DNA from: a virus
DNA: 64,000 nt
Virus record (IMG/VR): IMGVR_UViG_3300002835_000015
Coordinates: 32,001-96,000 of that record
Direction: 5' to 3' (one strand)
A program made the position numbers and the translations under genes. Numbering within the stretch: position 1 is the first letter of the stretch; each line of letters begins with the position of its first letter. The notes under the pieces were generated by a model, which searched no databases, was not told where the DNA came from, and worked only from the letters and a program-made list of their open reading frames with translations. This document shows, in pieces, positions 2,997 through 9,920 of the stretch.

Positions 2997-5900
2997 ATGT
3001 CCAAATTCGTACTGACCGCACAATTACAGCTACAAGCCCCGAATAATGTTAAGCAAGTTGTACAACAAATACAAACCCAGTTAAATGGCGTTAGTGTTAA
3101 CATACAAGTCCAGAATGCTGGACAAGCTCAAAAACAAATTCAGCAAGTAGCTCAAGCAACTAATCAAGCAACAACAGCAGCAGAACGCATGGGTAAAGCA
3201 TTTGCTCTATCTATTAGGCGTTTTGCTGCCTTTTCTATTGCCACGCGGGCGGTTGGCTTATTCACCAGTACTCTTGGTGATGCTGTTCAAGCATCCATTG
3301 ACTTTGAGAGGCAATTGATTAAAGTCTCTCAGGTCACTGGAAAAAGCATAGGTCAGCTTCGTGGACTAACTAAGCAAATTACTGATTTGTCTACTGGATT
3401 TGGTGTTGCATCTTCTGATTTACTTAATGTTTCTACAATTTTAGCACAAGCCGGTTTAAGTGCTGAAGACACATCGGCAGCATTAAGAACGTTAGCAAAA
3501 GCTGCTCTTGCCCCTAACTTTGATAGCATAACAGAAACGGCAGAAGGTGCTATTGCTATCTTAGCACAATTTGGTCAAGGCGTTGGAGCATTAGAAAAGC
3601 AGCTTGGTTCTATTAACGCTGTAGCCGGTGCATTCGCCGTAGAAGCCAGTGACTTAATTGACGTTGTTCGTAGAACGGGTGGTGTATTCAAATCTTCTGG
3701 TGGTAATCTTAATGAACTTTTAGCACTATTTACTAGCGTAAGAGCCACAACCCGAGAGAGTGCTGAAAGTATTGGTACTGGCTTACGTACAATCTTCACA
3801 CGTATCCAGCGACCAAAGACCATTGAATACTTAAAACAGTTTGGTGTTGAACTAACAGACTTAGATGGTAAGTTTGTTGGCCCATACGAAGCCATTAAAA
3901 GGCTAAGTGAGGCATTAGCTGGACTTGGCGATGGTGATGTTACATTTATTAGAATTGCTGAAGAGCTTGGTGGATTCCGACAAATTGGTAAAGTTCTTCC
4001 ACTATTACAGCAATTCTCTACTGCTCAGTCTGCGCTTAATGTCGCAATGAAAGCGGGCGATTCTTTAACTCAAGATGCTGCATCGGCACAGGCGGCACTT
4101 GCTGTTAGAATTATGAAAGTCAAAGAAGAATTTTTGGCATTAATTCGTAGTATTACTGAAACTTCTACTTTTCAGATAATGGCAAATACTGCGCTATCAT
4201 TAGCTTCAGCTTTAATCAAAATTGGAGATTCTATTAAACCACTACTACCAATGCTTGCTGCTTTAGCAACTTTTAGATTAGCTAAAGGATTGGGTGGTTT
4301 TTTTGGTGGCATGATGAGTGGTGCTGCTTCTGGACGAACTTATAATAAAGGTGGTAAAGTTCTTGGGTTTGCTAGAGGTGGTTTAGTTCCCGGTACTGGG
4401 AACGGAGATACTGTTCCTGCGATGTTAGCTCCCGGTGAATTTGTTATACGCAAAAGTAGCGTCAACAAGATGGGTGCTGGAAGACTAGCAGCGATGAATG
4501 AAAATCGATATGCGGCTGGTGGAATCACAAAAGCAAAACAAATGGGCATGTCTACGGCTGATGTTTTATCATCCTCTCGCGCTTCCATTAAATCTCCTAG
4601 ATTTTCAAGAGAATCTTCTGTTGGTATAGCCACTACTTCTTATCTACCGCAACCTGCTTCTTCTAATATTTCTATCGATAGAGATTCTGATGTTATTAAT
4701 CAAGTTATAGGAGGCGTTGGATATAGTTTATCTTCTAAATTTGGTCCAAAAAATTCTTTAGAGGCAATACAAAGTTTATTCAAGGGTAAGAAAAATTTTG
4801 CATTTGGAGCTACCATAGAGGGTGTTGGCAGAGATGAAGAATCTCAATTTGCTAATATAATTAATCAATCTATTTCAACAGCTATTGACACATCTGCAAA
4901 TAGATTCGCTACAGAGGTAATGAAAACATCACCACCCGGATCGGTGAAAAAATTATCATCTTTTTATAATACTTTAGACCAAGGTTTTCGTGGTCAATTA
5001 TTTGAAAATACTATTTCAGCATTAGCTGGCAAACCCCTATCTGGACAAGATTCAAGAAGACCATTTGACTTCACAAGAGGTATTGGCAAGTTTAGAAGTA
5101 TCTATGGTAATCTTGGCATGGATTATATAGATGCTAAAATTACAAAATCATCAGCTGGTTTAGGAACAACAGGTTTATTGACTAGTCCCGGTGAGGACGC
5201 TTTAAAATCTAAAGTCTCTGGTCAACTTGCCCTAGAAAGTTTGCCATTCATTCAATCTATTATTGGATCTGCTAAAAAAAGATATTTTGGTGGACTTATC
5301 CAAAAGTTTGCAGAAGGTGGTGAAGTATTAGAAAGAGGAACACAAAAATATTTAATCTCCGACGTTGTTAAGGGGATGAGAGAATTACAGGGCAATTCAG
5401 CATTAAGCGAGAAAGACGCTATTGCTTTATTTAACTCCAAAGATGCCCGTGGAGATTTTATTTATACTAACTTTGGTGGACCGGGAAGTGTAAAACTACC
5501 AAAGTGGATGGGAACTTATAGGCCACAATCGGCAGCTTATGGGGCATTTCAGAAAGCCCAAGCCGATAAACAAAATAGAATATCTGATGCAATGAGAAGG
5601 CAGGGCAAATCTATGCGAGATTATGAAACTCGCCGTGAATTTGCTACCGGCGGTGGAGTTGGTACTGATACCGTTCCCGCCCTATTAACTCCCGGTGAGT
5701 TTGTTGTTAATCGTAAGTCTGCACAGCGTATTGGTTATGGTTCGTTAAATAGGATGAACAAGGTTGGAAAATATGCGAATGGTGGAGTTGTTCAACACTT
5801 TGCGGCTGGATCTTCTGGTTCTGGAGTTAAAGCCCCCGGCGACTTAGCCGCTAGTGGAGCAAGAGTTACAGATGCAATAATGGGCAAATTAAGTCCTAAA

Positions 5901-8900
5901 GATGCAGCTTTAGTCAAAGATTCGATGAAAAAGAATTCTGACACATTTGATAAACTTACTAAAGAGATGCAGGACTTACTCTTTATGGAAGAAGAAGTAA
6001 CAGCTGCATATAAAGCATTAGCTAGAGCTTTAAAATCTGGAGTATCAGCAGAAGAAGCTCATCGTCAAGCATTAGCTGCCGCTGATGCGCAATTAAATGC
6101 TGGCAAAGGTGGAACAGGAATACCAGCTAGTAGTAGCGGCGTTTTAAGAGAAGCATCAATGACGGCAGAAGCAGAGGATGCAAAGGCAAGAACAAAGGTT
6201 GGACAATATAAAAGCGAAACAGGACCGTTAGGTAGAACTTTTGCTACTGAACAGGAAAAAAATGTAGCACTTCTTGAAAATAAAGCTAAAAAAGGACAAG
6301 TAACGGCAGAAGACCTTGGCAAAGGTCTAGGTGATGGTTTAAGTCAATCTCAAGCAAAAGCAATTGCCGCAACAAATGCCCAAGCAATAGCATCTCAAAA
6401 AGCTGCTCAGTCTAATATGACAGAAGCTGCCGCTTCAGATAAAGCAGCAAAAGCTGATGCAGCAGAAGCTGTAAGTAGTTCTAAAGCTTCTGGTATGGAT
6501 TTTGGCAATGTAGCAATGGGACTTTCTATGGTTAGTGGAACAATTCAGTCTATGCTGCCACCATTAGATGAAAATGCTAGCTTACTTACACAAATGTCTC
6601 ATGGTGTTCTTGGAGTTATAACAACTATAACTGGTTTAGCTTTTGCTGCATCTGCATTTGGTATTACTTTGAATGCTTCTACAGTTGCTTCTATGGCATC
6701 CACAGCGGCTAGTTTTTTGATGGGTACTGCCGGTGCCGCTGCTAGCACAGCAACATTAACATTAGCTGGTTCTGCTACATTAGCTGCTGCTGGAACTACT
6801 GGATTTGCTGCGGCAGCATTTACGGCTGCGGCAGGATTATTGACGGCGATGGCACCATTTATAGCTGCCGCCGTTGCTGTTGCTGGACCATTATTGTTAA
6901 TAGTTGGCATTGCATACGCTGTAACTAAAGCGTTTAATTTTATGATTGGTGCTTTTTATGATAAGTCTAAAGAATTAAAGAAAGCGACAGAAGAAGGTAA
7001 AGTACAAGAAGCTTCTAAATTAGCTGGACAACAATATGATTTAGAAGCTGCTAATAGCACTAGAGCTTTATATGGTACAATGGGTGCTGGTATTGGTGCA
7101 TTTTTTGGTGGTCCATTTGGAGCATTAATTGGTGCAGCTATAGGAAATCTTGGAGGAACGTTACTGGCTTATATTGCACCCGATTTTACAGAAGGTATCA
7201 ATGTTTTATTTGGTGGAAATACTAGAGCTAGTGCTGTTGCATTAGCCGCAGCCCAAGCTGGAGCAGTTAAGACTCAAAAATCCTTAGATGAAGCTCAAAA
7301 AATAGCTGCTAAAGCTATGGATGATTTTAAAAATGGAACCATATCTGCTTCTGATGCTCTAGCAAAGATTAGAGCTAAAAGTGGTGAAGCGGCATCTCAA
7401 GTGGGAAGAGCAGCTTCACTTGCAAAAGAAAATAGTAAAAATAGATCTACTGGGGCATTGAGCTATGGTCGAGAAACTATGGCCTATTTAAGTTTAGGTT
7501 ATGTTGACTCGGCAAAAGAAAGAAATGATAAGTTAAGCACTCAAAATGTAGAACAAATTAATAATGCATCCAAACAACAACAAGAAGCTTTTAATGTTGA
7601 AAGTCCTGCTAGGCAAGCTGCTATTAGATCTGGCTTAGCGAGGGGTGGCAATGCAAAAGATATCAGAACACAAGCGATGGGTAGTCTTCGAAGTCAGCGA
7701 GAAGAAGCTTTAAAAACCGCTCAATCTGCTGCAAAATCTGGAGATGATACAACTTATGATGCTGCTATAGCTCAAGCCAAGCAAATAGCTGATCAAATGG
7801 AGCAAGTAGATAAAGAAATAGAGAATATTGAGAAAGAGGTTAAGCGTCAAAAAGAATTGTATAATGCTATGAATCTTGGTTTGCGTTCTGCGGTTGCGAC
7901 TGCTACCGCATTATCAGCTAACATGAATAATTTTTCTGCCGGTCTAGAGGTTGGTGGATCAGCATTCGTAAATGATGTTGAATTTTTACAGCAAGCTATG
8001 AGTAGTTCTGCTCAAGCTATGGACCCCGCAGAAATTCAGAATGCTGTTAAGGGTGTATCAGATAATCTTAGACAGTTTGGATCTTCTGAGCAGTATATTA
8101 AGAAATTTGAAGGTAATGTTGCCGCATTTACTCAAGCTCAAGCCGGTTATAACACAGCTTTCAATAATATTAAGAAGTCAATGTCTGATGCCGATTTTAA
8201 GAATTTAAGTCCAGACGATCTAAAAAAGAAATTTGCAGAAGAATTAACTAAGGGTATGGGTCCAGATGTTTCCGAAGATGCCAAAAAGAATCTAAAATCA
8301 GTTATTGAAGGAATGGAATTAGATACCGGAGAAGTAGATAAAATACTTGCTGGAGATTTAAGCGTATTTGGAGATAAACTATCTGAATCTCAAAAGAAAA
8401 TGCTTGAAGATGTTCAGAAAATTGCTGCCGAAAGAGCAAAAGCTGAACAAGTATTAATTGACTTTACTAAGAAGAGAATTGATGCTGAAAGAAATCTAGT
8501 TCAAGCACAGCAAGAAGCTCTTGACTTGACTATGGAGGGTCGTGAAATTCAAGGTAAATATGGTGGCAAAGCCGTTACCGGACAAGAAAGAAGAAACAAC
8601 TTATTAGCCAAGTCTAATGCCGAAAGCGGTAGGCTAGGTCTAACAAATATGAGAACTGGCAGCATAGGAGAGTTAAGACAAAGAAATACTGAAATTAAGA
8701 ATAGTTTTGCCGCTATAGAAGCCAAAAGAAGTCAAAAGGGTGGAATGTCAGGAAAATCTGGCGTAGAAGCTGATGAAACTCAAAAAGACTTACAGAAAGC
8801 CTATAAGACACAAATTGATACAATAAGAGGATTAATCAAACTAGAAGAAGAGCAGCTTAAAATTACTCAAGAGAAAAACAAGCTTGAAAAAGATTCTATG

Positions 8901-9920
8901 GAGTCTTTAATCAAGGGAGATGTTGAAGATTTCTTTAAGAAACAATCTGCTGTTGGTGCTACTGCCGCTATAGCAAGCGGAGATAGTAGATTACAAAACT
9001 TTTATGGTGCTGATGCTCTTGGGATGGCATATCAAGATATTCAACGTCAACAAGATGCTGGCGTCCAAGAATTATATGGTCAACAACTCGCTGGCCCCGG
9101 CGGTTTAACAGAAGCTGCCGCTGGTTCTGCTCTATCAGCAAGAGGTGTAACTGATATGAGAGCAGCACAAGTAATGGCTGGAACAACAGCCGAAGAAGAA
9201 GCTAGTAAATCAAGGCTTCGTGAGCTAGGCGGAATGTTAGGAGAAACTGGACAAGTTGGAACAGAAATAGCAGAAATGCAAGTAAAAACATCCGTTGTTA
9301 ATTTAACAGCAGCACAAGTTACATTTGACAAAACTATGGAAAGGGGCAATGAAAAAGCTAAAGAAGCTCAAGCAATAGAAAATCAACGAGCAATGTCTAG
9401 GGGTGGCGTTGTATATGCAAGTCGTGGTATATTTGTACCCAGAGGGACTGACACTGTTCCAGCCATGTTAACACCGGGTGAATTTGTAGTTAATAGAGGC
9501 GCAGTCCAACGTGGTAATAATTTACAACTGCTACACGCAATGAATAACAATAACAGCGTAGGGGCTGTTAGCTCAGATGGTAGTGCCGTTGGTATGGCAA
9601 GAGGTGGTAGGGTTCAATACTTTTCTGAAGGTGGACAAGCTGGCGGTGGCGGATTCTTCTCTGGAATGTTTGATGGATTATCAAAGTTCGCTACCACGTT
9701 TGGTGCTGAAATATCTTCAGCCGTAGAAAAACTTAAAGGAATTAATATAAGTATTAAATTAGACTCTACAAATGTCAATGTTAACTTAAATGATGGAGGG
9801 TTATTAAAAGCCCTTACTGGCGAAGTTCAAACAAAGATATTTGAGTCTATAGAGTCACAGTTTAGAGTAGTAGAGGGTGGAAAACTAAAAAGAGATAGTA
9901 AGGTCTTAGGAAATAGATAA
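2997..9920 (+). CDS. Tail tape measure protein with internal cargo segments
   Basis: 2307 aa. TP901-like core (FERQLIKVSQVTG...), Ala/Gly-rich hydrophobic segment ~6500-7200, coiled coils, three DTVPA[ML]LxPGEFV modules. Confidence 0.92.
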   Translation: MSKFVLTAQLQLQAPNNVKQVVQQIQTQLNGVSVNIQVQNAGQAQKQIQQVAQATNQATTAAERMGKAFALSIRRFAAFSIATRAVGLFTSTLGDAVQASIDFERQLIKVSQVTGKSIGQLRGLTKQITDLSTGFGVASSDLLNVSTILAQAGLSAEDTSAALRTLAKAALAPNFDSITETAEGAIAILAQFGQGVGALEKQLGSINAVAGAFAVEASDLIDVVRRTGGVFKSSGGNLNELLALFTSVRATTRESAESIGTGLRTIFTRIQRPKTIEYLKQFGVELTDLDGKFVGPYEAIKRLSEALAGLGDGDVTFIRIAEELGGFRQIGKVLPLLQQFSTAQSALNVAMKAGDSLTQDAASAQAALAVRIMKVKEEFLALIRSITETSTFQIMANTALSLASALIKIGDSIKPLLPMLAALATFRLAKGLGGFFGGMMSGAASGRTYNKGGKVLGFARGGLVPGTGNGDTVPAMLAPGEFVIRKSSVNKMGAGRLAAMNENRYAAGGITKAKQMGMSTADVLSSSRASIKSPRFSRESSVGIATTSYLPQPASSNISIDRDSDVINQVIGGVGYSLSSKFGPKNSLEAIQSLFKGKKNFAFGATIEGVGRDEESQFANIINQSISTAIDTSANRFATEVMKTSPPGSVKKLSSFYNTLDQGFRGQLFENTISALAGKPLSGQDSRRPFDFTRGIGKFRSIYGNLGMDYIDAKITKSSAGLGTTGLLTSPGEDALKSKVSGQLALESLPFIQSIIGSAKKRYFGGLIQKFAEGGEVLERGTQKYLISDVVKGMRELQGNSALSEKDAIALFNSKDARGDFIYTNFGGPGSVKLPKWMGTYRPQSAAYGAFQKAQADKQNRISDAMRRQGKSMRDYETRREFATGGGVGTDTVPALLTPGEFVVNRKSAQRIGYGSLNRMNKVGKYANGGVVQHFAAGSSGSGVKAPGDLAASGARVTDAIMGKLSPKDAALVKDSMKKNSDTFDKLTKEMQDLLFMEEEVTAAYKALARALKSGVSAEEAHRQALAAADAQLNAGKGGTGIPASSSGVLREASMTAEAEDAKARTKVGQYKSETGPLGRTFATEQEKNVALLENKAKKGQVTAEDLGKGLGDGLSQSQAKAIAATNAQAIASQKAAQSNMTEAAASDKAAKADAAEAVSSSKASGMDFGNVAMGLSMVSGTIQSMLPPLDENASLLTQMSHGVLGVITTITGLAFAASAFGITLNASTVASMASTAASFLMGTAGAAASTATLTLAGSATLAAAGTTGFAAAAFTAAAGLLTAMAPFIAAAVAVAGPLLLIVGIAYAVTKAFNFMIGAFYDKSKELKKATEEGKVQEASKLAGQQYDLEAANSTRALYGTMGAGIGAFFGGPFGALIGAAIGNLGGTLLAYIAPDFTEGINVLFGGNTRASAVALAAAQAGAVKTQKSLDEAQKIAAKAMDDFKNGTISASDALAKIRAKSGEAASQVGRAASLAKENSKNRSTGALSYGRETMAYLSLGYVDSAKERNDKLSTQNVEQINNASKQQQEAFNVESPARQAAIRSGLARGGNAKDIRTQAMGSLRSQREEALKTAQSAAKSGDDTTYDAAIAQAKQIADQMEQVDKEIENIEKEVKRQKELYNAMNLGLRSAVATATALSANMNNFSAGLEVGGSAFVNDVEFLQQAMSSSAQAMDPAEIQNAVKGVSDNLRQFGSSEQYIKKFEGNVAAFTQAQAGYNTAFNNIKKSMSDADFKNLSPDDLKKKFAEELTKGMGPDVSEDAKKNLKSVIEGMELDTGEVDKILAGDLSVFGDKLSESQKKMLEDVQKIAAERAKAEQVLIDFTKKRIDAERNLVQAQQEALDLTMEGREIQGKYGGKAVTGQERRNNLLAKSNAESGRLGLTNMRTGSIGELRQRNTEIKNSFAAIEAKRSQKGGMSGKSGVEADETQKDLQKAYKTQIDTIRGLIKLEEEQLKITQEKNKLEKDSMESLIKGDVEDFFKKQSAVGATAAIASGDSRLQNFYGADALGMAYQDIQRQQDAGVQELYGQQLAGPGGLTEAAAGSALSARGVTDMRAAQVMAGTTAEEEASKSRLRELGGMLGETGQVGTEIAEMQVKTSVVNLTAAQVTFDKTMERGNEKAKEAQAIENQRAMSRGGVVYASRGIFVPRGTDTVPAMLTPGEFVVNRGAVQRGNNLQLLHAMNNNNSVGAVSSDGSAVGMARGGRVQYFSEGGQAGGGGFFSGMFDGLSKFATTFGAEISSAVEKLKGINISIKLDSTNVNVNLNDGGLLKALTGEVQTKIFESIESQFRVVEGGKLKRDSKVLGNR

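What the first reader, a model, noticed from the sequence alone, without database searches (positions are those of the whole stretch)
4341..5810. Tape measure protein carrying cargo domains between [FY]AxGG motifs: a candidate tail-delivered effector system
Seen: the TMP has three copies of a ~50-aa module ending ...DTVPA[ML]LxPGEFV[IV]...L..MN (~4370-4520, ~5640-5790, ~9400-9545) and about a dozen related [FYM]xxGG-type motifs (YNKGG, FARGG, YAAGG, YFGG, FAEGG, FATGG, YANGG, FAAGS, MSRGG, MARGG, FSEGG). Between modules 1 and 2 are two segments unlike the surrounding TMP repeats, ~255 aa (4524-5280) and ~105 aa (5322-5640). Known: a FATGG...GEFV...YATGG module lies near the C-terminus of lambda gpH, whose C-terminal part is proteolytically removed, and TMPs are ejected into the cell. 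Inference: the duplicated modules act as processing or recombination boundaries, making the TMP a polyprotein that injects swappable effectors, analogous to MuF polymorphic toxins but tail-borne.
Basis: partly seen in the sequence, partly recalled or inferred. Interest (0 to 1): 0.85.

Follow-up and report, generated by a model that had tools for sequence, protein, structure and literature searches.

The report
Tape measure protein with swappable cassettes
The tail tape measure protein of this uncultured 159-kb phage has a hypervariable insert region, bounded by copies of a lambda-gpH-type module, in which domains such as an ADP-ribosyltransferase in relatives are exchanged at short [FY]AxGG joints, so the tail may deliver interchangeable enzymes into the host.

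Summary
The 2307-aa tape measure protein (TMP, 2997-9920) has three copies of a module that is homologous to the one near the C-terminus of lambda gpH. It also has nine [FYM]xxGG motifs, against 2.2 expected, all at the modules or at one internal joint.

In 119 relatives, residues 1-500 are 71-91% identical. Identity drops to 13-31% between modules 1 and 2, and the module 1 to module 2 distance ranges from 275 to 679 aa.

The first segment (segA) is not swappable. All 119 relatives have it, it evolves fast, and it keeps an invariant Glu, Asp and Lys in PD-(D/E)xK order. No fold match supports a nuclease.

The second segment is a true cassette slot. It is empty in 49 relatives and holds at least six unrelated cassette types in the others. 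One type is an ADP-ribosyltransferase that scores above Pfam cut-offs. In each of the 34 relatives listed, n cassettes come with n+1 FAxGG joints. TMPs with identical N-termini diverge exactly at a joint.

The reading "polymorphic cargo slot with recombination joints" is supported. Cleavage at the joints is untested; the only hint is that T5 pb2 is cut at R1127 just before AEGG. The functions of this window's own two segments remain unknown. I found no description of this architecture in the papers searched.

The parts
2997..9920 (+). Tape measure protein gene, 2307 aa
   Evidence: ORF. PF10145 PhageMin_Tail E=6.2e-26 and TMP PHROGs. Relatives are named TP901-family TMP by JGI.
3372..3935 (+). 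PhageMin_Tail domain (aa 126-313), inside the conserved N-terminal 500 aa
   Evidence: Residues 1-500 are 71-91% identical across 118 relatives.
4239..4340 (+). Hydrophobic, glycine-rich stretch just upstream of module 1 (aa 415-448). Lambda gpH has the same order: a hydrophobic, Gly-rich stretch followed by the module.
   Evidence: Read from the sequence. Lambda arrangement and PMC12617516.
4341..4526 (+). Module 1 (aa 449-510): YNKGG, FARGG, DTVPAMLAPGEFV ... MN, YAAGG
   Evidence: Invariant in position (aa 471) in relatives. 65-98% identical across the 26 loci.
4527..4823 (+). Variable linker between module 1 and the segA core (aa 511-609). The equivalent stretch is 56-232 aa in relatives.
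4824..5312 (+). segA core domain (aa 610-772), with invariant E670 (nt 5004), D691 (nt 5067) and K714 (nt 5136) in the order G..FE / pFDF / DAK
   Evidence: Invariant in 60 sequences (A5). The HMM hits 119 of 119 relatives. 464 representatives, nearly all inside long TMPs. AF2 pLDDT 72-90.
5307..5321 (+). Internal joint FAEGG (aa 771-775) between segA and the cassette
   Evidence: Breakpoints of near-identical TMPs fall here.
5322..5639 (+). Cassette of type T1 (aa 776-881), function unknown. Optional in the family.
   Evidence: Present in 24 of 119 relatives, also in tandem with other cassettes; the slot is empty in 49. AF2 pLDDT 79-91 for its first half.
5640..5813 (+). Module 2 (aa 882-939): FATGG, DTVPALLTPGEFV ... 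MN, YANGG, FAAGS
   Evidence: Forms an identity peak between two hypervariable zones.
5847..6446 (+). Second hypervariable zone (aa 951-1150), helical and low-complexity. It is the least conserved part of the protein.
   Evidence: 3-9% mean identity, and only 11-31% of relatives can be aligned.
6594..7181 (+). Hydrophobic, transmembrane-like Gly/Ala-rich region (aa 1200-1395)
   Evidence: Kyte-Doolittle windows.
9393..9635 (+). Module 3 (aa 2133-2213): MSRGG, DTVPAMLTPGEFV ... MN, MARGG, FSEGG
9636..9917 (+). C-terminal ~94 aa, presumed hub-binding end of the TMP
   Evidence: Inferred by position, from lambda gpH residues 818-849 bound to gpI (PMC12617516). Not tested here.

Best explanation
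This is a tape measure protein with a built-in polymorphic insert region. The duplicated gpH-type modules 1 and 2 are conserved anchors that bracket the region. Inside it sit two things. The first is a family-wide, fast-evolving ~160-aa domain (segA) with an invariant Glu/Asp/Lys triad. The second is a slot holding 0 to 2 or more unrelated cassettes in series. Each cassette is delimited on both sides by a [basic][basic]-[FY]-A-x-G-G joint. Cassettes are gained, lost and exchanged between related phages by recombination at these joints. Because tape measure proteins leave the tail lumen and enter the cell envelope before the DNA, the inserted domains are most likely delivered to the host at the start of infection. 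They would act there as early effectors, much as T4 Alt does; the clearest case is the ADP-ribosyltransferase cassette in relatives. Shown here: the architecture, the hypervariability, the rule linking joints to cassettes, the breakpoints at joints, and the ART identity of one cassette type. Inferred: delivery, activity in the host, and any proteolytic release at the joints.
For: (1) 111 of 128 family TMPs have three modules. Module 1 is fixed at aa 471, while the module 1 to module 2 distance is 275-679 aa.
(2) Identity to 118 relatives is 0.71-0.91 for aa 1-500 and 0.13-0.31 for aa 501-850. It peaks again at 0.46-0.61 at module 2.
(3) The slot after segA is empty in 49 relatives. In the others it holds T1 (24), T2 (17), a coiled type (9), ART (7), tandem T2+T1, P-loop+T1, T2+new, or singletons.
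(4) The ART cassette passes Pfam gathering scores. P0005 scores 32.0 bits on PF03496 (cut-off 23.4). L050 scores 25.4 bits on PF03496 and 23.0 bits on PF01129 (cut-off 22.3). The STS and ExE motifs are conserved.
(5) In all 34 TMPs listed, n cassettes come with n+1 joints. In several empty slots the segA end ...GGIIQKFA runs straight into TGGGVGTDTVP of module 2.
(6) P0126 and P0127 are 99% identical over 780 aa, diverge at KFA(F/T)GG and rejoin at module 2. P0105 and P0108 are 100% identical over 750 aa, after which P0108 has a 170-aa P-loop cassette inserted at the joint.
(7) Slot content changes at least 47 times on the 119-tip N-terminal tree. Shuffled labels give a mean of 63 and a minimum of 55.
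(8) Other TMP families place their own inserts between copies of the same module. One insert has LysM and SLT-like domains (L074). Others have an ART cassette (L050), or an HExxH motif seen by eye in a cassette with no Pfam hit (L069).
(9) Precedent: TMPs are ejected ahead of the DNA, and lambda gpH and T5 pb2 are cleaved. The T5 cut separates an enzymatic C-terminal piece from the rest (PMC12617516, PMC10038345).
Confidence: 0.6

Rival explanations
1. The joints are proteolytic processing sites. The TMP would be a true polyprotein, cut at or next to [FY]AxGG during tail maturation or after ejection, so that segA and each cassette are released as separate proteins.
For: Lambda gpH is cut in the Gly-rich region just upstream of its module, which starts with FATGG at 733. 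The fragment gpHC starts at about residue 690, and the exact site is unknown (PMC12617516). The T5 pb2 cut was mapped after R1127, and the next residues are AEGG (PMC10038345; sequence checked). Joints in this family are usually preceded by one or two basic residues, as in RREFATGG, RKRFAAGG and RRRFATGG. Only module 1 has the lambda-like hydrophobic, Gly-rich stretch upstream.
Against: There are no proteomic data for any family member. The T5 C-terminus does not score above shuffled controls with the module HMM, so the AEGG match is a five-residue resemblance. No protease was identified near the gene; the neighbouring ORFs have no Pfam or PHROG hits, and some were scanned with only one library. 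Conserved joints are explained equally well as flexible linkers that tolerate domain insertion.
Confidence: 0.25
2. The inter-module region is a structural or host-interaction part of the injection conduit, not an effector carrier. It would contact envelope or inner-membrane host factors. It would diversify under selection from receptor variation and superinfection-exclusion proteins, and most 'cassettes' would be spacers.
For: segA is present in every relative, as expected for a core functional part. The zone after module 2 (aa 951-1150) is even more variable and is plain helical TMP sequence. T1, T2 and the coiled cassette have no enzymatic signature. By my own recollection, not searched here, TMPs are targets of superinfection-exclusion proteins. 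HK97 TMP depends on host inner-membrane and periplasmic proteins (Cumby 2015, as cited in PMC10240207).
Against: A bona fide ADP-ribosyltransferase cassette occupies the same slot, and such an enzyme needs a cytoplasmic substrate (NAD). P-loop and HExxH motifs were also seen by eye in other cassettes, without a family hit. The invariant E/D/K amid ~20% identity looks catalytic rather than purely structural.
Confidence: 0.25
3. segA is a PD-(D/E)xK (restriction-endonuclease-fold) nuclease delivered by the tail to attack host or competitor DNA.
For: The invariant residues follow the canonical order: E670 in a helix (G..FE), D691 in pFDF, and D712-A-K714 at the end of a strand. Other TMP families carry a compact domain with a textbook FE..., PxD, ExK pattern at the same position after module 1 (L063, L066, L083, L084, L055). 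hhalign aligns the FE...PxD parts of the two families (E=0.0019). The weak Foldseek rows include three PD-(D/E)xK enzymes: PA endonuclease, Mus81 and XPF.
Against: The hhalign probability is only 14%. The Foldseek rows have E>3 and vanish on VIA re-alignment. The model lacks the full four-stranded sheet. There is no Pfam, PDB or NCBIfam hit with profiles. In some distant TMP families the Lys is replaced, giving DAT, DVT or DTT.
Confidence: 0.35
4. The three modules are relics of gene fusion or internal duplication of TMP-like units. Residues 1-510 resemble a complete short TMP ending in its own module. On this view the modules have only an assembly role, docking to tube, hub or chaperone, with no link to cargo.
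For: In many PHROG TMP families the module lies near the C-terminus. The order PhageMin_Tail, hydrophobic Gly-rich stretch, module 1 mimics a whole TMP. The copies are old at DNA level.
Against: This does not explain why variable content is confined between modules, or why breakpoints fall on the joints. The three-module plan is kept in 111 of 128 relatives, which implies selection on the arrangement.
Confidence: 0.15

Closest known systems
Lambda gpH and T5 pb2 tape measure proteins (C-terminal module, proteolytic maturation)
   Same: Same kind of protein. The lambda gpH module FATGG...GEFV...YATGG is homologous to the module here (27.4 bits). Both known TMPs are cleaved near a Gly-rich or AxGG site, and the T5 cut frees an enzymatic piece.
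   Different: Lambda and T5 have one module near the C-terminus and no insert region. Here there are three modules, two of them far upstream, bracketing hypervariable content. Cleavage is not shown here. T5 does not match the module HMM.
TMPs with embedded peptidoglycan hydrolase domains (actinophage TMPs; SPbeta YomI; T5 pb2C)
   Same: Globular enzymatic domains are embedded in a tape measure and carried in the tail. In L074 the LysM and SLT-like domains also lie between copies of the same module. YomI-type TMPs matched the N-terminal domain.
   Different: Those domains act on the cell wall and are fixed features. Here the inserts are exchanged among close relatives and include an ADP-ribosyltransferase, a class that acts on cytoplasmic targets.
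MuF-associated polymorphic toxins and polyvalent proteins of phages (Jamet 2017, cited from memory; Iyer et al. 2017, PMC5512222)
   Same: A virion protein carries variable effector domains, ART among them, that are thought to be injected with the DNA. The domain content is mosaic.
   Different: Those carriers are head or portal-associated, with terminal toxin domains. Here the carrier is the tail tape measure, the inserts are internal, and a repeated joint motif delimits each one. The polyvalent-protein paper does not contain the word 'tape'.
Demarcation motifs of bacterial polymorphic toxins (VENN in CdiA, PxxxxDPxGL in Rhs; from my own knowledge)
   Same: A short conserved motif marks the border between a conserved delivery part and variable toxin domains, and it coincides with recombination breakpoints.
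   Different: Those systems have one motif with a C-terminal toxin and a downstream immunity gene. Here there are n+1 motifs for n internal cassettes, and no immunity gene is evident.
T4 Alt (ADP-ribosyltransferase injected with the DNA)
   Same: A phage ART is delivered at infection to modify host proteins (as summarised in PMC5512222).
   Different: Alt is a separate head-packaged protein. The ART here is a cassette inside relatives' TMPs and is absent from this window's TMP.

Membership tests
Phage tail tape measure protein (TP901 / PhageMin_Tail type) | PF10145 PhageMin_Tail domain and TMP profile matches | tested here: met
   PF10145 E=6.2e-26, 92 bits against a cut-off of 33.2. phrog_28, 4211, 167 and others.
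Phage tail tape measure protein (TP901 / PhageMin_Tail type) | Very long, largely helical protein with hydrophobic segments, located in the tail gene block | tested here: met
   2307 aa, with hydrophobic windows at aa 1200-1395. It is followed by giant structural-size ORFs on the same strand. The neighbours themselves have no family hits.
Lambda gpH-type C-terminal module | Sequence homology to the gpH segment FATGG...GEFV...YATGG | tested here: met
   An HMM of 563 modules scores gpH at 27.4 bits, against at most 4.9 bits for 100 shuffles. Many PHROG TMP families match it near their C-termini.
Lambda gpH-type C-terminal module | Proteolytic cleavage next to the module (gpH to gpH* plus gpHC) | not testable with these tools
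   Needs virion proteomics. The literature gives only approximate lambda coordinates.
PD-(D/E)xK nuclease superfamily (for segA) | Ordered motif: E in a helix, then D, then (D/E)xK in strands | tested here: met
   E670, D691 and D712-A-K714 are invariant in 60 sequences. The secondary-structure context agrees in part.
PD-(D/E)xK nuclease superfamily (for segA) | Alpha-beta-beta-beta-alpha-beta restriction-endonuclease fold | tested here: inconclusive
PD-(D/E)xK nuclease superfamily (for segA) | Metal-dependent nuclease activity | not testable with these tools
   Needs biochemistry.
ADP-ribosyltransferase toxins (PF03496 / PF01129), cassette in relatives | Profile match above the curated cut-off, with STS and ExE motifs | tested here: met
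   P0005 scores 32.0 bits (cut-off 23.4). L050 scores 25.4 and 23.0 bits (cut-offs 23.4 and 22.3). The motifs are conserved in 8 sequences.
ADP-ribosyltransferase toxins (PF03496 / PF01129), cassette in relatives | Present in this window's TMP | tested here: not met
   The window carries a T1 cassette instead, and no ART hit was found.
Polymorphic toxin systems (CdiA, Rhs, MuF type) | Conserved delivery part, demarcation motif, and variable toxin domains exchanged by recombination | tested here: met
Polymorphic toxin systems (CdiA, Rhs, MuF type) | Toxin at the C-terminus with a cognate immunity gene immediately downstream | tested here: not met
   The cassettes are internal. The next gene is a 1496-aa ORF overlapping the stop codon. 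A lytic phage may not need immunity.
Polyvalent proteins (Iyer et al. 2017) | Several unrelated effector domains in one virion-delivered protein | tested here: inconclusive
   Tandem cassettes exist in relatives: ART+T1, P-loop+T1 and T2+new. Only ART is identified, and the carrier type (TMP) differs from those described.

The most novel reading that the evidence does not exclude
The [basic]-[FY]AxGG joints are the long-sought cleavage sites of tape measure proteins. This would include the unmapped gpH to gpH* cut in lambda and the R1127/AEGG cut in T5. In this large environmental phage family the TMP would then be a tail-lumen polyprotein, cut at each joint to release a nuclease-like domain and interchangeable effectors (ART, P-loop enzyme, metallopeptidase) into the cell ahead of the DNA. 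That would make it a tail-borne polymorphic effector delivery system.
Probability: 0.2. Interest if true: 0.9.

Novelty: new variant of a known kind. Interest (0 to 1): 0.72.

Why it matters
Tape measure proteins are usually treated as rulers and channel formers that sometimes carry a fixed cell-wall hydrolase. Here a family of more than 2000 environmental TMPs uses duplicated copies of the gpH-type module and a five-residue joint as a plug-in system for unrelated domains. One of those domains is an ADP-ribosyltransferase. If the cassettes are delivered, the tail lumen is a second route, besides the head, for injecting anti-host or anti-defence enzymes, and the slot is a ready catalogue of such effectors. 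The joint motif also gives a concrete, testable candidate for the unknown cleavage site of lambda gpH. For phage engineering, it marks a natural position where foreign domains are tolerated inside a TMP.

Tried and rejected
- AF2 on a 22-sequence alignment of the inter-module region gave a useless model (pLDDT 43.5). A 60-sequence alignment raised this to 64.
- All fold searches of that 492-aa model gave only noise or helical-hairpin matches. These were Foldseek PDB, VIA-align wide, VIA second look, ESM Atlas by shape and BFVD.
- ESM Atlas feature searches of segA and T1 returned only unnamed clusters below 0.9.
- PDB sequence and profile searches with the segment, A1 and A7 found nothing.
- Pfam and NCBIfam found nothing for segA, T1, T2 or the compact PD-ExK-like domains.
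- Aligning full-length TMPs to deepen the alignment failed on size limits or internal errors. The search for related loci with the segA alignment found no conserved stretch to seed on.
- T5 pb2 as a module homologue is rejected at HMM level: it does not score above shuffles. Only the AEGG resemblance at its cleavage site remains.
- Intragenic homologous recombination between the three modules is unlikely, because only a 38-nt core reaches 82-84% identity.
- No close relative exists among 50,697 deposited phage genomes.
- Literature searches for TMPs with ART, toxin or polyvalent domains found no description of this architecture. The library is incomplete, so prior description cannot be excluded.
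Full report
**What is there.** The window lies in a 158.8-kb IMG/VR virus record. The ORF 2997-9920 (+) encodes a 2307-aa protein with a PhageMin_Tail domain (PF10145, E=6.2e-26). It also matches tape-measure PHROGs. No deposited phage genome is close to it. The neighbouring giant ORFs match no Pfam or PHROG family.

**The observation.** The core DTVPAxLxPGEFV occurs three times, at aa 471, 891 and 2152. It occurs nowhere else in the genome.
- Nine [FYM]xxGG motifs are present, against 2.2 +/- 1.5 in shuffles; 0 of 2000 shuffles reach nine.
- Eight of the nine belong to the three modules.
Its C-terminus reads FATGG (733), GEFV (754), YATGG (778).
- An HMM built from 563 modules scores gpH at 27.4 bits, against at most 4.9 bits for 100 shuffled controls.
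- PHROG profiles show the module near the C-terminus of many TMP families. tblastn finds it in TMPs of cultured Gordonia, Mycobacterium, Shewanella, Acinetobacter, Nodularia and other phages.
- At DNA level the three copies share only a 38-nt core at 82-84% identity. They are therefore old duplicates maintained at protein level.

The N-terminal 458 aa retrieved 26 IMG/VR loci at 50-93% identity. The inter-module segment retrieved only one locus, at 44%.
- A protein search with residues 1-470 found more than 2180 TMPs at E<=1e-30. Of 128 TMPs examined, 111 have three modules.
- Module 1 is fixed at aa 471, whereas the module 1 to module 2 distance ranges from 275 to 679 aa.
- Mean identity of 118 relatives to this TMP is 0.71-0.91 over aa 1-500. 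It falls abruptly to 0.13-0.31 over aa 501-850 and peaks again at module 2 (0.46-0.61).
- Identity is lowest (0.03-0.09) over aa 951-1150. It is intermediate for the rest of the protein, with a further peak at module 3.

**The first segment is not swappable.** An HMM of its core (A2, 160 positions) hits all 119 inter-module regions. It hits 464 representatives in a 1.8-billion-protein library, almost all at position 600-900 of long TMP-like proteins.
- The domain diverges fast (about 20% identity) but keeps three invariant residues in 60 diverse sequences: E670, D691 and K714. They lie in the pattern G..FE, pFDF, DAK.
- This is the order of a PD-(D/E)xK nuclease motif.
- AF2 with 60 sequences models the core at pLDDT 72-90. 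E670 lies in a helix and D712-A-K714 at the end of a strand.
- No fold search gave a match above noise. No profile hit any Pfam, NCBIfam or PDB entry.
- Other TMP families carry a compact domain at the same place with a textbook FE, PxD, ExK pattern. hhalign aligns the FE...PxD part of the two families only weakly (E=0.0019, probability 14%).
- I therefore rate the nuclease reading at about one in three.

**The second segment sits in a real cassette slot.** The slot lies after segA. It is empty in 49 of 119 relatives, and the others fall into several types:

| Slot content | Relatives |
|---|---|
| Empty | 49 |
| T1 (this window's type) | 24 |
| T2 (unrelated, 146-182 aa) | 17 |
| Coiled type | 9 |
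| ADP-ribosyltransferase | 7 |
| Short type (46-50 aa) | 3 |
| Tandem sets (T2+T1, P-loop+T1, T2+a new domain) | 5 |
| Singleton types | 5 |

- The ART assignment is solid. P0005 scores 32.0 bits on PF03496 (cut-off 23.4). L050, from another TMP lineage, scores 25.4 bits on PF03496 and 23.0 bits on PF01129 (cut-off 22.3).
- The STS and ExE motifs are conserved in all eight ART sequences.
- The order of cassettes also varies, with both T1+ART and ART+T1 found.

**The joints.** In several TMPs with an empty slot, the end of segA (...GGIIQKFA) runs directly into TGGGVGTDTVP of module 2.
- With one cassette there are two FAxGG joints, and with two cassettes there are three. This held in every one of the 34 TMPs listed.
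- Each cassette therefore behaves as a unit: xGG, then the domain, then (K/R)(K/R)FA.
- Pairs of TMPs that are nearly identical elsewhere break exactly at a joint. P0126 and P0127 are 99% identical over 780 aa, diverge at KFA(F/T)GG and rejoin at module 2.
- P0105 and P0108 are 100% identical over 750 aa, and then P0108 has a 170-aa P-loop cassette. Two further pairs diverge at the [FY]AxGG that ends module 1.
- On a tree of the N-terminal 458 aa, slot content changes at least 47 times among 119 tips. Shuffled labels give a mean of 63 and a minimum of 55. Presence or absence alone changes at least 28 times. Turnover is thus very frequent.

**Generality.** A scan of viral contigs with the module pattern found at least 527 confirmed stretches. 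Many belong to other TMP lineages that also have two or more modules with their own inserts between them.
- These inserts include segA-like domains, compact PD-ExK-like domains, T2 cassettes and an ART.
- One cassette has an HExxH motif.
- In an actinophage-type TMP (L074) the insert has two LysM domains and an SLT-like region.
- So the known cell-wall-hydrolase inserts of TMPs appear to use the same module framing.

**How it most likely works.** What is shown is a conserved tape measure scaffold with a polymorphic insert region, whose units are exchanged at [FY]AxGG joints.
- The inference starts from known biology: TMPs exit the tail and enter the envelope ahead of the DNA (PMC12617516, PMC10038345). 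The inserted domains are therefore probably delivered to the host at the onset of infection.
- The ART cassette needs NAD and cytoplasmic targets, which argues for delivery beyond the periplasm, in the manner of T4 Alt.
- Whether the joints are also cleavage sites is open. Lambda gpH is cut in the Gly-rich stretch just upstream of its module, at an unmapped site.
- T5 pb2 is cut after R1127, and the next residues are AEGG. However, T5 does not match the module HMM, so this is only a motif-level hint.
- Only module 1 here has the lambda-like hydrophobic, Gly-rich stretch upstream. If a lambda-type cut exists, aa 435-460 is the likeliest place.

**Rivals.** Four alternatives were considered.
- The region is a host-interaction part of the conduit that evolves under an arms race, and most cassettes are spacers.
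- segA is a nuclease.
- The modules are relics of fusion with assembly roles only.
- The full polyprotein reading, in which the joints are cut.

These are scored in the rival explanations section. The functions of this window's own segA and T1 remain unassigned.

**Comparison with what is known.** The protein is a member of the TMP family and carries the gpH-type module. It works like MuF-type polymorphic toxins and polyvalent proteins, and its joint behaves like the VENN or Rhs demarcation motifs. It differs in three ways: the carrier is the tail tape measure, the inserts are internal, and one joint is repeated per cassette.
- The polyvalent-protein paper does not mention tape measures.
- Four literature searches found no description of ART or toxin cassettes in TMPs.
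- The library is incomplete, so I class this as a new variant of a known kind.

**Verdict.** The cassette and recombination part is well supported by comparative evidence. The cleavage and injection parts are plausible but untested.

Noticed in passing
window 5847-6446 (TMP aa 951-1150): A second hypervariable zone lies directly after module 2. It is the least conserved part of the TMP (3-9% mean identity, and only 11-31% of relatives can be aligned). It is plain helical, low-complexity sequence, and near-identical TMP pairs are mosaic here as well.
   Followed up: partly
L063:3223-3606, L066:3247-3630, L083, L084:3277-3669, L055:3304-3711, L053, L056, L091: Other TMP lineages carry a compact ~100-aa domain right after their first module, with a textbook FE ... 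PxD ... ExK pattern (PD-(D/E)xK-like). It has no Pfam or PDB hit. In L045 and L063 it stands in tandem with a segA-like domain, separated by a KFAAGG or RFAAGG joint.
   Followed up: partly
L069:922-3009: A multi-cassette insert in another TMP includes a domain shared with P0097's 'new' cassette and a region with an HExxH (HELTH) metallopeptidase-like motif. There is no significant Pfam hit.
   Followed up: no
L110:14122-14781 (T5 pb2 C-terminus): The published T5 pb2 cleavage site (after R1127) is followed immediately by AEGG. About 14 residues later comes GEHGTEVV, which loosely resembles the AxGG...GEFV arrangement, but the module HMM does not score it above shuffles.
   Followed up: yes
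phage records H48-H49, H54-H57 and H62-H63: The module also occurs in proteins annotated as endolysin or lysozyme in Streptomyces phages SF1, SF3 and VWB and in Synechococcus phage S-SCSM1. It occurs too in unnamed proteins of cyanomyophages (P-TIM68, Bellamy). These may be tail-lumen proteins rather than true endolysins.
   Followed up: no
window 9920-31460: Five very large ORFs lie downstream of the TMP on the same strand (1496, 2213, 616, 1584 and 1125 aa). None matched a family in the libraries tried: the 1496-aa ORF was scanned with Pfam and PHROGs, the other four with PHROGs only. The tail-tip apparatus of this lineage is essentially unannotated.
   Followed up: partly
P0041, P0049, P0072 (relatives' TMPs): Precomputed Pfam lists glycine-zipper families (PF13441, PF13488) in some relatives. 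A T6SS paper (PMC10240207) reports that TMP glycine zippers resemble the membrane-translocation motif of the effector Tde1. This may bear on how TMP inserts cross the inner membrane.
   Followed up: no
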